Source: an uncultured Lachnospiraceae bacterium (lineage in GTDB: Bacteria > Bacillota > Clostridia > Lachnospirales > Lachnospiraceae). From it: 64,000 nt of DNA. The stretch lies in NCBI GenBank assembly GCA_946631295.1, contig CAMOZY010000004.1:2316-66315 (forward strand). The letters run 5' to 3'. Under the pieces are notes generated by a model. The model was not told the DNA's origin. It ran no database searches and was given only the letters and a program-made list of their open reading frames with translations. Shown here one piece after another: positions 5,279 through 36,892 of the stretch; position 1 is the stretch's first letter, and each line of letters begins with the position of its first letter. The position numbers were made by a program, and so were the translations under genes.

Positions 5279-7045
5279 TTATCGGTAATATCTGAGCCTG
5301 TAGTCTATGTATTCGTTTCCTTTGTAAACGTTAAGATTTAACTCATAACATATATCCAGATCGATTTTTCCGATTCCGGAGTAAACTTTTTCGGCCGTTC
5401 CGGGGCCGAATTTTGTGTCAATATACTTATCCAGAGCATCCATATCGCCAAAATATGTCACCTTAAAGCTTCTTCCTGAACTTACAGCTGTGAGATTTCC
5501 GTATTGTTTTTCTTTTCCCATACGGGATATGCCCTTAATGGTAACGGTTGTTGCAAACAAAGCTCCCGGATTGCCTGCACCCACAGGCTCCAGCTTTTCA
5601 AGATCTTTGACCAGCCTTACAGTTGCATATTCAAGAGGAACACGGGCATCAAATCTCACTTCCCTGTAAAGATCCTCATCCTGCAGTCCTGCGTTTTCAT
5701 TAAGCCTTCTCCTGAGTTCAGAAAGATTGCTTTCTTCAAGAGAAAAGCCCGCAGCCATTGCATGACCTCCAAACTTGGTAAAAAGTTCCTTAACCTCGGA
5801 CATTTTCTCGAACATATTATATGCGGGTATGGACCTGCCTGAACCCTTAAGGCCTTCCTCTCCTCTTGTCACGACCAGAACAGGCCGGTTATAGCTTTCC
5901 TTGATTTTGCCTGCAACAAGTCCGGCAATACTTTCATGGAGCTCCGGAAGATAGATGACCAGCACTTTTTCGGACAGCATGTTTTCGGATTCTATCATGG
6001 AAACAGCTTTTTTGGTGCCTGTAACAGTCATATTCTTCCGTGAATCATTAAGTTCTCTTATGCGAAGAGCATCAGCAAGACACTTATCATAATCTTCCGA
6101 AAGAAGCAGATTGACAGATTCACCCGCACTTTCAAGTCTTCCAGTAGAGTTTATGCATGGTCCTATGACAAAGGAAAGAGAATACGCGGACAGATGGGTT
6201 CCATCAAGTCTGTTGGCGTTCATAAGAGCCCTGATACCGCTGTTTTTGGTACTTTCCATCTGCCTGATGCCTTCCCGCACCATTACCCTGTTCTCATCAC
6301 AAAGATCCATGACATCACAGGCAGTGCCAAGTGCAGCAAACTGAATGCATTCCTCAAGGGCGTTTTTCAACGCTTGCGAAGGATATCTATCCAAAAGTGC
6401 AGACATGAACTTATATGCGACCATTGCACCGCATATTCCCTTGTAAGGATATGCACTTCCCTCCCTGTGAGGATCAACCACAGCTTCGCAGACAGGAAGG
6501 ATTTCATTTCTGTTACCGTTACCGTCATCCAAAAAATGAACCTGATGATGATCCGTAACAATAACCTTTATAGAGAGTTCATATGCAAGGGCAATCTGTG
6601 AAGCAGCCGCTATACCGTTATCACATGTGATGATAAGATCTATTCCGTCTTCAGCACATTCTCTCACAAGATCATCGTTTATTCCGTAGCCGTCCTTAAG
6701 TCTGTGAGGTATGGCATAGGAAACGATGCCTCCTGCTGCTTCTATACACTTTACGAGGATGTAGGTCGAAGTAACCCCGTCAACATCATAATCCCCGATG
6801 ATGCGGATCTTTTCACCGCCATCTATTGCTGATATAAGTTCTGCAACTGCTTTCTCCATATCAGGAAGAAGGAACGGATCATGAAACAGCTCTTTTCCGC
6901 CTTCAAGATATTTTCTTGCATCTTCAATATTTTCCGCACCGCGGTTTCTTATAATACGGGCAAGGAGAGGATCTATTCCCAGCTCTTCTCCCCATTTGAT
7001 GAAATCTCCGCCCTTTCTTATCTCAAGCCATCTGTCCATGTTCAA
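5279..7045 (-). CDS. recJ: Single-stranded-DNA exonuclease RecJ
   Basis: GDYDVDG, TCDNG, TDHH (DHH), GPCINSTGRL, KGSGRS, FGGHAMAAG. Confidence 0.96.
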   Translation of the reverse strand: MNMDRWLEIRKGGDFIKWGEELGIDPLLARIIRNRGAENIEDARKYLEGGKELFHDPFLLPDMEKAVAELISAIDGGEKIRIIGDYDVDGVTSTYILVKCIEAAGGIVSYAIPHRLKDGYGINDDLVRECAEDGIDLIITCDNGIAAASQIALAYELSIKVIVTDHHQVHFLDDGNGNRNEILPVCEAVVDPHREGSAYPYKGICGAMVAYKFMSALLDRYPSQALKNALEECIQFAALGTACDVMDLCDENRVMVREGIRQMESTKNSGIRALMNANRLDGTHLSAYSLSFVIGPCINSTGRLESAGESVNLLLSEDYDKCLADALRIRELNDSRKNMTVTGTKKAVSMIESENMLSEKVLVIYLPELHESIAGLVAGKIKESYNRPVLVVTRGEEGLKGSGRSIPAYNMFEKMSEVKELFTKFGGHAMAAGFSLEESNLSELRRRLNENAGLQDEDLYREVRFDARVPLEYATVRLVKDLEKLEPVGAGNPGALFATTVTIKGISRMGKEKQYGNLTAVSSGRSFKVTYFGDMDALDKYIDTKFGPGTAEKVYSGIGKIDLDICYELNLNVYKGNEYIDYRLRYYR

Positions 7046-35189: not shown

Positions 35190-36170
35190 TCAGTCATCAT
35201 AAGGATGAATGGTCTCAATGGTTCCGTCCTCTGAGATATTAAGTTTGGTGTACTTTACACATCTTTCATGAGTGATACCCTTTGAAAGCTCACAGTCATG
35301 ATAGAAAATGTACCACTCTCCGTCTATCTCAAGGATTGAGTGATGGGTAGTCCATCCGAGAACAGGCTCCATTATCCTTCCCTTATAAGTGAAAGGTCCC
35401 TCGGGCTTATCTCCCTCTGCATAGCACAGATAATGGGTTGTGCCTGTAGAATAAGAGAAATAATACTTTCCGTTATACTTGTAAACCCAGGGATCTTCGA
35501 AATATCTGCGGTCCTCATCACAAGCCTTGATGGGATCTCCGTTTTCATCAAGGATCTCGATGTGCTTAGGAGCAGATACAAATCCTGTCATATCCTGCTT
35601 AAACTCTGCAAAAAGAGGTCCGAGTGCGGGAACTTCTCCCTCAGGTCTGGGCTCATCGGGATTAAACTCTCCTGACTGCCACATCTCAAGCTGTCCGCCC
35701 CAGAGTCCGCCGTTATAGCAGTAGATTCTTCCGTCATCGTCAACAAGAACAGCGGGATCGATGCTGTAGCTGCCTTCGATGAAATTCTCCTGAGGCTTGA
35801 AGGGTCCGACAGGGCTGTCTGACTCTGCAACACCTATACGGAACTTGCCTTCGTGATCCTTTGCAGGAAAAACGAGATAGTACTTTCCGTTTACTTTAAT
35901 GCAATCGGGAGCCCACATCTGCTGCTTAACCCAGGGAATATCCTTATAATTGATCGCAACTCCGTTATCAACGCAGGGAGAATCCAGATTATCCATTGAA
36001 AGCACATGATAATCTTCCATCATGTACTGTGCTCCGTCATCATCGTCGGGAACATCCAGCTCAATGTCATGTGAAGGATAGATATAGATCTTTCCGTCAA
36101 AAACATGAGCGGAAGGATCTGCGGTAAACATATGTGTTACCAGAGGTTTTCTTTCATTAGGTCTTCTCAT
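35190..36170 (-). CDS. GH43 beta-xylosidase/arabinofuranosidase (GH43_1-like, no signal peptide)
   Basis: TADPSAH, YPSHD, WAPD, SIDPAV, YFEDPW, WTTHHSI. Confidence 0.92.
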   Translation of the reverse strand: MRRPNERKPLVTHMFTADPSAHVFDGKIYIYPSHDIELDVPDDDDGAQYMMEDYHVLSMDNLDSPCVDNGVAINYKDIPWVKQQMWAPDCIKVNGKYYLVFPAKDHEGKFRIGVAESDSPVGPFKPQENFIEGSYSIDPAVLVDDDGRIYCYNGGLWGGQLEMWQSGEFNPDEPRPEGEVPALGPLFAEFKQDMTGFVSAPKHIEILDENGDPIKACDEDRRYFEDPWVYKYNGKYYFSYSTGTTHYLCYAEGDKPEGPFTYKGRIMEPVLGWTTHHSILEIDGEWYIFYHDCELSKGITHERCVKYTKLNISEDGTIETIHPYDD

Positions 36171-36311
36171 AGTATATTTCCCTTTCAGAAAATAATAATC
36201 GTTACAGATATATATTATTCACAAAGGGAAAAAATAACTCTTCAAAACTTGCCATGTATTGGTTAATTATTTTCAGTATGTACGTATCACCCGCATTTTT
36301 ATGCATCTTCA

Positions 36312-36395
36312 ATGACAGGAATATTAATCCTTCATATAACGATTTCGTTCGGTTTGGGATATACCATCGGACGCAATAATATTACACGAAAATAG
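36312..36395 (+). CDS. 27-aa hydrophobic micro-ORF, type I toxin-like (possibly a degenerate remnant)
   Basis: MTGILILHITISFGLGYTIGRNNITRK; the stop lies inside the stem of a bidirectional terminator; no clear SD. Confidence 0.45.
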   Translation: MTGILILHITISFGLGYTIGRNNITRK

Positions 36396-36476
36396 CCGCC
36401 CCGGTCAGCAAACTTGAGCGGCTAATTCGTTAGCTATTTTCGAGAAGGACTGGCCGTTGCCGGTGGCATCCTTTCT
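36388..36476 (-). ncRNA. Candidate antisense/antitoxin small RNA
   Basis: TTGACA-17-TAATAT promoter with TGn extension (36510-36482), no ORF, ends in TAGCCGC...GCGGCTA-TTTT. Confidence 0.6.
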
Positions 36477-36481
36477 TGATT

Positions 36482-36510
36482 ATATTAACATCCCATATGT
36501 ATTATGTCAA
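36482..36510 (-). promoter_or_regulatory. Near-consensus sigma-A promoter driving the candidate sRNA
   Basis: TTGACA 36510-36505, 17-nt spacer ending TGT, TAATAT 36487-36482. Confidence 0.75.
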
Positions 36511-36574
36511 AAATAATAAGTGACAGGTACGTTTATATATAATCCCACCGATATTATCTGATTTTCCCGCCGAA

Positions 36575-36756
36575 CCGACCGAGTGATGCGCATGCGCATC
36601 ACGAGATATGAACCCACACGGGTTCAACGGAGCCGTTGCGCGGAAGGCGGGGCGCATGACGTCCGGTGGACGTCAGAATTGCGCCGACCGAGGGGCACTC
36701 CCCAGTGCCCCGAGATATGAACCCGGCGGGGATCACGGAACGCCCTCGGCGTTCCG
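36575..36756. repeat. GC-rich two-unit structured repeat (109-nt period) with multiple hairpins
   Basis: CCGACCGAG-[20-nt hairpin]-GAGATATGAACCC-N4-GGG(T/A)TCA at 36575 and 36684; further hairpins at 36651-36685 and 36736-36756. Confidence 0.8.
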
Positions 36757-36804
36757 AAATAGAAAAATCCACTTGAGGAATTTCCTCAAGTGGATTTTCT
36801 ATTT
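36757..36804 (-). terminator. Long near-perfect inverted repeat terminating the tRNA
   Basis: AAATAGAAAAATCCACTTGAGGAA / TTTCCTCAAGTGGATTTTCTATTT. Confidence 0.8.
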
Positions 36805-36808
36805 GGAA

Positions 36809-36892
36809 TGCGGAAGGCGGGACTTGAACCCGCACGACCTTGCAGCCACAAGAACCTTAATCTTGCTTGTCTACCAATTCCAACACTTCCGC
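36809..36892 (-). tRNA. tRNA-Leu(AAG), 84 nt, long variable arm, CCA not encoded
   Basis: GCGGAAG acceptor stem, D-loop GGAATTGGTAGAC, anticodon arm CAAGA-TT AAG GT-TCTTG (anticodon 36858-36856), T-loop GGTTCAAGTCC, discriminator A. Confidence 0.95.

What the first reader, a model, noticed from the sequence alone, without database searches (positions are those of the whole stretch)
36312..36510. Hidden type I toxin-antitoxin-like module: 27-aa hydrophobic ORF convergent with a strongly promoted antisense RNA
Seen: the plus-strand ORF MTGILILHITISFGLGYTIGRNNITRK (hydrophobic core, basic tail) stops at 36395 inside the hairpin TAGCCGC...GCGGCTA. On the minus strand a TTGACA-17-TAATAT promoter with TGn drives an ORF-less RNA of about 90 nt ending at the same hairpin, so the transcripts would overlap at their 3' ends. 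Known: this is the geometry of Firmicute type I TA loci (TxpA/RatA, Fst/RNAII, C. difficile RCd loci). Inference: the ORF lacks a clear SD, so it may be a decayed toxin with an orphaned antitoxin. It lies next to a tRNA, a typical integration hotspot.
Basis: partly seen in the sequence, partly recalled or inferred. Interest (0 to 1): 0.65.

Follow-up and report, generated by a model that had tools for sequence, protein, structure and literature searches.

The report
Orphan antitoxin RNA beside toxin remnant
This stretch is a half-decayed copy of a common but unnamed "toxin peptide plus antisense RNA" gene pair of gut and rumen Lachnospiraceae: the small-RNA gene is intact, while only the last 15-16 codons of the peptide gene survive, so it is an ordinary relic of an interesting, uncatalogued family.

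Summary

Comparison with relatives shows what it is.
- The ~90-nt minus-strand RNA belongs to a structured sRNA family. It was found in 86 of 300 Lachnospiraceae genera sampled and in some other Clostridia. It is absent from Rfam.
- In about 70% of 77 loci examined, this sRNA is convergent with an intact 28-41 aa hydrophobic peptide gene that has a strong SD. The peptide's stop codon almost always ends 10 nt inside the sRNA 3' end.
- Most of these peptides form an uncurated "GYxxG" family. Public databases list them only as hypothetical proteins, for example in Blautia.
- A minority are Pfam Hol_Tox type I toxins. That tie links the RNA scaffold to known type I toxin-antitoxin biology.

In this window only the last 15-16 codons of the peptide gene are homologous. 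Its promoter, 5' UTR, SD and N-terminal half are gone. The sRNA gene and its promoter are intact.

About 30% of loci are similarly degenerate, and their sRNA promoters are on average weaker.

The parts
36482..36510 (-). sRNA promoter: -35 TTGACA (36510-36505), 17-nt spacer, extended -10 TGtTAATAT (-10 at 36487-36482)
   Evidence: 10 of 12 plus TG. The same layout is conserved upstream of the sRNA in relatives. It scores 11 of 13 on my promoter measure, equal to the median of loci with an intact toxin.
36386..36477 (-). Antisense sRNA gene of about 90 nt (candidate antitoxin), intact
   Evidence: Covariance model R1 hit at 36386-36479, 97.4 bits (the window sequence is part of the model's seed). 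Fold. Family structure: 91.8% of cells paired and 15 of 22 pairs with compensatory changes, against 30-53% paired for slid controls.
36446..36473 (-). sRNA 5' hairpin (GGAUGCCACCGGCAACGGCCAGUCC). Its complement plus the T-run (36453-36477, + strand) is the terminator that the toxin mRNA would have used.
   Evidence: The core GGATGCCACCGGCAACGG is identical in all five copies found by BLAST in the genus.
36386..36425 (-). sRNA terminator: 9-bp G+C-rich stem (36425-36417 with 36402-36393), then UAUUUUCGU
   Evidence: G-U pairs on this strand (columns 89/121 and 90/119 of A6) would be A-C mismatches on the other strand.
36346..36395 (+). Remnant of the toxin gene: the last 15-16 codons (S)FGLGYTIGRNNITRK plus the stop
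   Evidence: BLAST homology to relatives ends at 36346. The C-terminus matches the G021 peptide ...FGLGYAIGRNNITRK. tblastn against the own genome is.
36312..36345 (+). Non-homologous 5' part of the 27-aa ORF (ATG plus 11 codons). It has no SD, no toxin promoter and no 5' UTR upstream.
   Evidence: Local alignment of 36180-36347 to six intact toxin genes scores no better than shuffles: 14-18 against a control mean of about 16. No SD is present.
36283..36683 (.). Approximate extent of the roughly 400-nt segment (module plus one GC-rich repeat unit) that is absent at the syntenic site of relative G012
   Evidence: Alignment A5. G012 goes from the GH43 upstream region straight to one GC-rich unit, the tRNA terminator and tRNA-Leu(AAG).

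Best explanation
The locus is a degenerate copy of a type I toxin-antitoxin-like module.

How intact copies are built (relatives):
- A promoter drives a toxin mRNA of about 300 nt. It has a roughly 110-150-nt structured 5' UTR, a strong SD and a 30-35 aa single-helix membrane peptide with a basic tail.
- A strong convergent promoter drives a roughly 90-nt sRNA. The sRNA is fully complementary to the toxin mRNA's last codons and its 3' UTR.
- The sRNA's 5' hairpin is the toxin's terminator, and the sRNA's terminator covers the toxin's stop codon.

How intact copies probably work (inferred):
- The toxin mRNA is closed by a long helix between its 5' end and its 3' end.
- The sRNA pairs with that 3' end, giving a duplex of about 90 bp that would be an RNase III substrate.
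- This frees the 5' arm, which then pairs with the SD. The sRNA would therefore both destabilise the mRNA and block its translation.

What is left in this window:
- The toxin promoter, 5' UTR, SD and N-terminal half have been lost.
- The 27-aa ORF is a chance fusion of unrelated sequence to the last 15-16 codons and is most likely not expressed.
- The sRNA gene keeps its promoter and both hairpins, so it is probably still transcribed. It has no cognate target in this genome.
- It is therefore an orphan antitoxin, most likely a neutral relic on its way to decay.
For: Shown by tools:
- Homology. The sRNA region 36512-36346 is about 80% identical to copies in G021, G005 (two copies) and G013. All of those have an intact convergent peptide gene with SD GGAGAGGAGGGG or GAAAGGAGGG.
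- Family size. R1 hits 86 of 300 Lachnospiraceae genera, often 2-4 copies per genome, and 22 of about 290 other Clostridia genomes.
- Pairing with peptides. Of 77 assessable loci, 46 have an intact GYxxG peptide and 8 have another small hydrophobic peptide. The stop codon ends 10 nt inside the sRNA 3' end in all but two of them (11 and 12 nt).
- Link to known toxins. Two of the five alternative peptides scanned pass the Pfam Hol_Tox (PF16935) cut-off: 25.1 and 27.6 bits against 23.3.
- sRNA structure. It is supported by covariation.
- End-to-end pairing. The toxin mRNA 5' end pairs with its own 3' end at -38 to -52 kcal/mol, against -18 to -33 for shuffles, in 22 of 25 loci.
- SD accessibility. 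Masking the sRNA-binding 3' region lowers the predicted probability that the SD is unpaired from 0.28 to 0.14 on average, with a fall in 22 of 25 loci.
- Truncation here. There is no homology upstream of 36346 and no SD.
- Degenerate loci in general. 23 of 77 loci are degenerate, through 5' truncation, frameshift or internal deletion. Their hairpins are as stable as in intact loci, but their promoters are weaker: 9.4 against 10.7 of 13, Mann-Whitney p = 0.001.
- No target here. The only other family member in this genome (contig C74) is too divergent for the window sRNA to pair with: -46 kcal/mol against -49 for shuffles.
Against:
- No member of the GYxxG peptide family has been tested for toxicity.
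- The peptides match no curated toxin family.
- The window's sRNA promoter is as good as those at intact loci (11 of 13). Decay of the sRNA itself is not visible here, so a retained function cannot be excluded.
- The switch model rests on thermodynamic predictions for related loci that are not phylogenetically independent.
- The genome is a 91%-complete MAG, so a cognate intact copy could lie in the missing 9%.
Confidence: 0.78

Rival explanations
1. The orphan sRNA is kept because it is useful. It could act as an anti-addiction or immunity element that neutralises toxin mRNAs of incoming modules of the same subfamily. Alternatively it could have acquired other targets in trans.
For: - The promoter and both hairpins are intact here.
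- 15 of 23 degenerate loci keep a near-consensus sRNA promoter.
- The window sRNA retains about 65-70% of the cognate duplex energy (-125 to -139 against about -195 kcal/mol) with toxin mRNAs of its own subfamily. The perfect complementary blocks are 16-21 nt long.
Against: - sRNA promoters at degenerate loci are significantly weaker than at intact loci, which is the pattern of relaxed selection.
- Losing the toxin first is the only viable order of decay, so orphans are expected without any function.
- No module of this subfamily was found in the phage or plasmid collections.
- There is no complementarity to the other module in this genome.
Confidence: 0.17
2. The locus is a complete, functional type I TA pair whose toxin is the 27-aa ORF at 36312-36395.
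For: The ORF is open, hydrophobic with a basic tail, and ends at the canonical position inside the sRNA terminator.
Against: - It has no SD.
- The conserved toxin promoter and 5' UTR are absent, although both are present in the intact relatives whose upstream sequence is available.
- The N-terminal 12 codons are not homologous to the family.
- The conserved N-terminal motif ML(T)xE/DxLIAV is absent.
- All neighbouring genes are on the other strand, so nothing reads through on the + strand.
Confidence: 0.03
3. The minus-strand RNA is a 5' leader or attenuator of the downstream GH43 gene (start at 36170), not an independent sRNA.
For: It has the same orientation as the GH43 gene and lies about 215 nt upstream of it. 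The terminator has an interrupted U-run, so some read-through is possible.
Against: - The same RNA occurs in many unrelated contexts, always opposite a small peptide gene.
- The GH43 upstream region (36279-36170) is conserved in relatives that lack the RNA (G001, G012, G009, G014, G018).
- There is no Rfam cis-regulatory match.
Confidence: 0.03

Closest known systems
bsrG/SR4 of Bacillus subtilis SPbeta, together with bsrE/SR5, txpA/RatA and yonT/SR6 (type I TA with 3'-overlapping convergent RNAs; Jahn and Brantl 2013, PMC3834814)
   Same: - It has a small hydrophobic peptide and a convergent antisense RNA overlapping the toxin mRNA's 3' end.
- The antitoxin's terminator region lies in the overlap.
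- The predicted action is dual: duplex-mediated decay plus a remote refolding that tightens SD sequestration. PMC3834814 showed this experimentally for SR4.
- Some loci with this same sRNA scaffold encode Pfam Hol_Tox peptides.
   Different: - The sRNA matches no Rfam family. BsrG (RF01412) reaches only 19 bits, E = 0.6, at one locus.
- The main peptide family (GYxxG) has no Pfam or NCBIfam hit.
- The sRNA is shorter and is wholly contained in the toxin's 3' UTR plus its last codons.
- The toxin mRNA is predicted to be closed by a 5'-3' helix.
- In this window the toxin half is destroyed.
hok/sok of plasmid R1 (fold-back inhibition: 5'-3' pairing of the full-length toxin mRNA)
   Same: A long-range helix between the two ends of the toxin mRNA is predicted in 22 of 25 intact relatives.
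   Different: - In hok/sok the antisense RNA binds the 5' leader, not the 3' end.
- hok/sok has a leader ORF (mok) and belongs to Gram-negative bacteria.
- There is no sequence relationship.
par (fst RNA I / RNA II) of Enterococcus faecalis pAD1
   Same: The genes are convergent and share a bidirectional terminator. The toxin is a small membrane peptide.
   Different: - In par the decisive pairing is between repeats at the toxin's 5' end and the antitoxin. This is from my own knowledge, supported by the family summary in PMC8594479.
- Here the sRNA's 5' part resembles the toxin's 5' end rather than complementing it.
- The peptides have no Fst_toxin hit in Pfam.
Clostridioides difficile type I TA (CD2517.1-RCd8 and others; PMC5961336, PMC6563280)
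   Same: It is a clostridial-class organism with a 30-56 aa hydrophobic peptide that has a Lys-rich tail and an overlapping antisense RNA.
   Different: There is no detectable sequence relationship and the host family is different. The 2019 review reports that searches for known type I toxins were negative in most clostridial species (PMC6563280).

Membership tests
Type I toxin-antitoxin systems (the general kind) | Small (<60 aa) hydrophobic, membrane-type peptide gene | tested here: not met
   In the window only the last 15-16 codons are homologous, and the gene has no SD, promoter or N-terminus. The feature is met in 54 of 77 related loci.
Type I toxin-antitoxin systems (the general kind) | Antisense RNA gene whose transcript overlaps the toxin mRNA | tested here: met
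   The feature is met by sequence. The evidence is the consensus promoter, the terminator and fold, and a conserved, covarying structure. The overlap covers the stop codon and the whole 3' UTR.
Type I toxin-antitoxin systems (the general kind) | Peptide is toxic when expressed, and the RNA neutralises it | not testable with these tools
   No experiment was possible. No paper on this family was found.
Type I toxin-antitoxin systems (the general kind) | Toxin mRNA folded so that translation is restrained (SD sequestration) | tested here: inconclusive
   This is prediction only, on relatives. The mean probability that the SD is unpaired is 0.28, falling to 0.14 when the sRNA site is masked. The window has no 5' UTR left.
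Pfam Hol_Tox (PF16935), the only known toxin family matched here; weak sub-threshold NCBIfam hits to PepG1 and ComI | Peptide scores above the Pfam gathering cut-off | tested here: not met
   The GYxxG peptides, including the window ORF, give no Hol_Tox hit at E <= 10. Among the alternative peptides at other loci with the same sRNA, two pass the cut-off (25.1 and 27.6 bits against 23.3) and one is just below it (23.2).
Fst/Ldr toxins (Pfam Fst_toxin) | Peptide matches the family profile | tested here: not met
   No hit in Pfam-A or NCBIfam for any of the 25 peptides.
Rfam antitoxin and antisense RNA families (RatA, SR4/BsrG, par RNAII, SprF and others) | sRNA reaches a family's gathering score | tested here: not met
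   Apart from the tRNA, nothing reached a gathering score in the window or in 8 related loci.

The most novel reading that the evidence does not exclude
Orphan antitoxin sRNAs of this family may be kept in Lachnospiraceae chromosomes as heritable immunity against incoming modules of the same subfamily (anti-addiction).
- About 30% of the loci examined are orphans.
- The window copy could still form a duplex of -125 to -139 kcal/mol with subfamily toxin mRNAs.
- More broadly, the family would work through a three-way RNA switch not described for any studied type I system. The toxin mRNA's 5' end and the sRNA's 5' domain are near-identical competitors for the toxin's 3' end, and the displaced 5' arm then silences the SD.
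Probability: 0.15. Interest if true: 0.65.

Novelty: new member of a known kind. Interest (0 to 1): 0.42.

Why it matters
The window copy itself is a relic and matters little for this organism. Its value is as a pointer.

- It belongs to a very common RNA-peptide module of gut and rumen Lachnospiraceae that has no entry in Rfam, Pfam or NCBIfam. Blautia, Allocoprococcus comes, [Ruminococcus] torques and Oribacterium all carry it, and single peptide variants are seen on about 1000 or more contigs. No paper on it turned up in the library searched.
- The literature says type I toxins are hardly detectable in Clostridia outside C. difficile (PMC6563280). This family would fill that gap.
- One sRNA scaffold serves at least two unrelated peptide families.
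- The many half-decayed copies give a natural series for studying how TA modules die: the toxin goes first, then the antitoxin promoter.
- For annotation, these roughly 400-nt units are currently blank intergenic space or lone 'hypothetical proteins'.

Tried and rejected
- **Genome-contig scan.** An exact scan of genome contigs with the 18-mer GGATGCCACCGGCAACGG was too unspecific. Most of the 120 hits were chance matches in G+C-rich genomes. It did bring in Oribacterium sp. NK2B42, Lachnospiraceae RGIG4306 and one other locus, L108.
- **Metagenome scans.** Two exact scans, one for the breakpoint 24-mer and one for a window-specific sRNA 20-mer, gave nothing relevant.
- **Peptide searches.** The search for homologous proteins refuses queries under 40 aa. 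A 41-aa relative found only 3 proteins.
- **Mobile elements.** The phage and plasmid collections gave no DNA match for the module and only insignificant peptide hits.
- **Full-length but diverged ORF.** I considered that the 27-aa ORF is a full-length diverged toxin, because GGA..TTAATC resembles the EGLIA codons. I rejected this because local alignments of 36180-36347 to six intact genes score no better than shuffles.
- **Clustered breakpoints.** Truncation breakpoints seemed to cluster at 15-22 retained codons in the first 10 cases. With 23 cases the spread runs from 0 to 28 codons, so I make no such claim.
- **Promoter at the breakpoint.** I considered that a promoter at the breakpoint drives a non-coding remnant RNA. 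Only the window (ATGACA-17-TATAAC) and L141 (TTGAAA-17-TATAAT) have such a promoter, so it is not general.
- **Cross-regulation within the genome.** I tested whether the window sRNA could regulate the genome's other module on contig C74. There is no complementarity above shuffles, and model R1 does not even detect that sRNA.
- **GH43 leader or riboswitch.** Rejected; see the rival explanations.

Full report
**1. The observation**

- The + strand ORF at 36312..36395 reads MTGILILHITISFGLGYTIGRNNITRK.
- Its TAG stop (36393-36395) opens the hairpin at 36393-36425.
- On the minus strand, TTGACA (36510-36505), a 17-nt spacer and TAATAT (36487-36482) preceded by TG form one of the two best promoter matches in a 3.2-kb scan. 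The other is the promoter of the neighbouring tRNA-Leu.
- From a start near 36476 the RNA runs about 90 nt to a 9-bp G+C-rich hairpin followed by UAUUUUCGU. It folds into two hairpins at -34.8 kcal/mol, z = -2.9.
- The complement of its 5' hairpin plus a T-run is itself called as a + strand terminator at 36453-36467. A + strand transcript would therefore overlap the whole sRNA.
- No SD precedes the ORF.
- Rfam finds only the tRNA at 36809-36892.

**2. What it is**

A BLAST of the region against relatives split it into two independently conserved pieces.
- Positions 36279-36170 match the region upstream of the GH43 gene in genomes that lack the RNA. The GH43 assignment is Pfam PF04616, 104 bits.
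- Positions 36512-36346 match four places in three other species of the same genus (G021, G005 twice in tandem, G013), in other contexts.

In those relatives the homology continues beyond the hairpin into an intact convergent gene. That gene encodes M(Q/P)MLTLEGLIAVISLVLTAFGLGYAIG(RNNITRK / CSRNARK / CNKNARK), sits behind GGAGAGGAGGGG or GAAAGGAGGG, and has a 5' UTR of about 140 nt and its own promoter. The window shares only the C-terminal FGLGYTIGRNNITRK. Upstream of 36346, local alignments to six intact genes score no better than shuffled sequence.

The 27-aa ORF is therefore a chance fusion of unrelated sequence to the last 15-16 codons of a toxin-type gene. That gene has lost its promoter, 5' UTR, SD and N-terminal half. 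At the syntenic site of relative G012, the GH43 upstream region is followed directly by one GC-rich unit and tRNA-Leu, so about 400 nt including the module are present here and absent there. No integrase is nearby.

**3. The family**

- **Spread.** A covariance model of the sRNA (R1) finds full-length matches in 86 of 300 genera of the family, often 2-4 per genome. Record titles of matching contigs show the family is Lachnospiraceae. It also hits 22 of about 290 genomes of other families of the class.
- **RNA structure.** On 42 sequences the two-hairpin structure has 91.8% of cells paired and 15 of 22 pairs with compensatory changes. Slid controls reach 30-53%. This alignment was fitted to the model. 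G-U pairs in the terminator favour folding on the sRNA strand.
- **Partners.** I inspected 78 loci, of which 77 could be assessed.
  - 46 have an intact peptide with the invariant GYxxG motif and an SD.
  - 8 have a different small hydrophobic peptide.
  - 23 are degenerate.
  - The peptide's stop codon ends 10 nt inside the sRNA 3' end at all but two of these loci (11 and 12 nt).
- **Peptide annotation.** The GYxxG peptides have no significant hit in Pfam, NCBIfam or PHROGs. Public databases list them only as 'hypothetical' or 'uncharacterised' proteins of Blautia, Allocoprococcus comes, [Ruminococcus] torques and others. Single variants are seen on about 1000 or more contigs.
- **Link to known toxins.** Two of the five alternative peptides scanned pass the Pfam Hol_Tox cut-off: 25.1 and 27.6 bits against 23.3. 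This ties the RNA scaffold to a recognised type I toxin family.
- **Other checks.** No Rfam family matches the sRNA in eight further loci. No paper on the family was found, and a 2019 review states that known type I toxins are hardly found in clostridial species other than C. difficile.

**4. How intact copies probably work (inference from predictions)**

- In 22 of 25 intact loci the first 35 nt or so of the toxin mRNA pair with its last 40 nt or so. That 3' stretch is the complement of the sRNA's 5' hairpin. The energies are -38 to -52 kcal/mol, against -18 to -33 for shuffled tails.
- The two arms differ between subfamilies yet stay complementary within each. The sRNA's 5' domain is thus nearly the same sequence as the toxin's 5' end, and both compete for the toxin's 3' end.
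- When the sRNA-binding 3' region is masked, the freed 5' arm (for example UUAGUCCUUC) pairs with the SD region (GGAGGGCUAA). The predicted probability that the SD is unpaired falls from 0.28 to 0.14 on average, with a fall in 22 of 25 loci.
- This resembles the dual action shown experimentally for SR4 on bsrG mRNA (PMC3834814), but the geometry is different.
- None of this machinery is left on the toxin side in the window.

**5. What the orphan sRNA does here**

- The own genome (a 91%-complete MAG) has no other R1 match.
- tblastn found one divergent intact module on contig C74, encoding MTLLDLIALSSFAIAIFQLGYMLGNAKKKS with its own convergent sRNA.
- The window sRNA has no specific complementarity to that mRNA, and R1 does not detect that sRNA. 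The window sRNA therefore has no cognate target in the assembled genome.
- Across the family, degenerate loci arose in several ways: 5' truncation, frameshifts (L148, L248), an internal deletion (L258), and loss of the SD only (L154, L238).
- Their hairpins are as stable as at intact loci, but their promoters are weaker: 9.4 against 10.7 of 13, p = 0.001. The loci are not phylogenetically independent.
- This is the pattern expected if the toxin must die first and the antitoxin then drifts.
- The window copy, with a promoter of 11 of 13, looks like a young relic.
- A retained role cannot be excluded. The window sRNA would still form duplexes of -125 to -139 kcal/mol, with 16-21-nt perfect blocks, with toxin mRNAs of its own subfamily. 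It could therefore blunt an incoming module.

**6. Rivals**

- A GH43 leader or attenuator is unlikely. The RNA travels with peptide genes in many contexts, and the GH43 upstream region is conserved without it.
- A functional 27-aa toxin is unlikely. There is no SD, promoter or 5' UTR, the N-terminus is not homologous, and all neighbouring genes are on the other strand.
- Chance is excluded by the conservation.

**7. Limits**

- Toxicity is untested for the whole GYxxG family.
- E-values of R1 are rough.
- Notes from earlier agents of this scan describe what appear to be the same or sister families. I used them as leads only, and I re-tested the end-to-end pairing claim myself.

**8. Verdict**

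The object is a decayed member of a widespread, uncatalogued family of a known kind (type I TA with 3'-overlapping convergent RNAs). The locus itself is of modest interest. The family, and the natural decay series it offers, deserve an experiment in cultured Blautia or Oribacterium.

Noticed in passing
L174 (own genome, contig C74) 5440-5745: This is a second, intact and divergent module of the same architecture in the same genome. The peptide MTLLDLIALSSFAIAIFQLGYMLGNAKKKS lies at 5553-5645 (+) behind GAAAGGAGGG. Its 5' UTR carries CCCUCC anti-SD elements. A convergent sRNA starts from TTGACT-17-TATTAT. Model R1 does not detect this sRNA, so the family is wider than R1 reaches.
   Followed up: partly
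window 36540-36760: Two GC-rich repeat units, each CCGACCGAG followed by a hairpin and GAGATATGAACCC..., lie between the sRNA promoter and the tRNA-Leu terminator. Relative G012 has a single such unit at the same place. The extra unit and the TA remnant together make up the roughly 400-nt difference.
   Followed up: partly
window 36312-36340 (+) and L141: A promoter-like ATGACA-17-TATAAC sits exactly at the breakpoint and would start a + strand RNA about 51 nt before the stop. Orphan locus L141 has TTGAAA-17-TATAAT (with TG) at the same distance. Other orphans have nothing comparable, so this is probably coincidence.
   Followed up: yes
L144, L228, L230, L232, L245, L252, L254, L164: The same sRNA scaffold (R1 hits) is paired with 28-34 aa peptides of the Hol_Tox type (MVTYxELFQFGLLIVAIVGLVYKISHKK, MSDYEILSLV...) instead of GYxxG peptides. 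The toxin cassette appears to have been swapped under one antitoxin architecture.
   Followed up: partly
L003 (G005 contig, = L027) 1500-2350: Two complete modules lie in tandem, 476 nt apart. They are nearly identical in the toxin mRNA but differ in the middle of the sRNA. The peptide tails are CSRNARK and CNKNARK.
   Followed up: no
L161, L172, L255: In these loci the sRNA carries an extra 5' hairpin of about 25 nt (for example GGACACCUGCUGGUAACAGGUGUCC) ahead of the conserved ACCGAUAGACGGU hairpin. This gives a longer sRNA variant.
   Followed up: no
L072 (Oribacterium sp. NK2B42, NZ_KE384187.1): A cultured rumen isolate has the same state as the window. Its sRNA is intact, with TTGACA-17-TAAGAT about 15 nt further upstream. 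Its toxin gene is cut down to ...SLALTAFGLGYAIGRNSKNTRE without a start codon or SD. It is a practical organism for testing orphan sRNA expression.
   Followed up: partly
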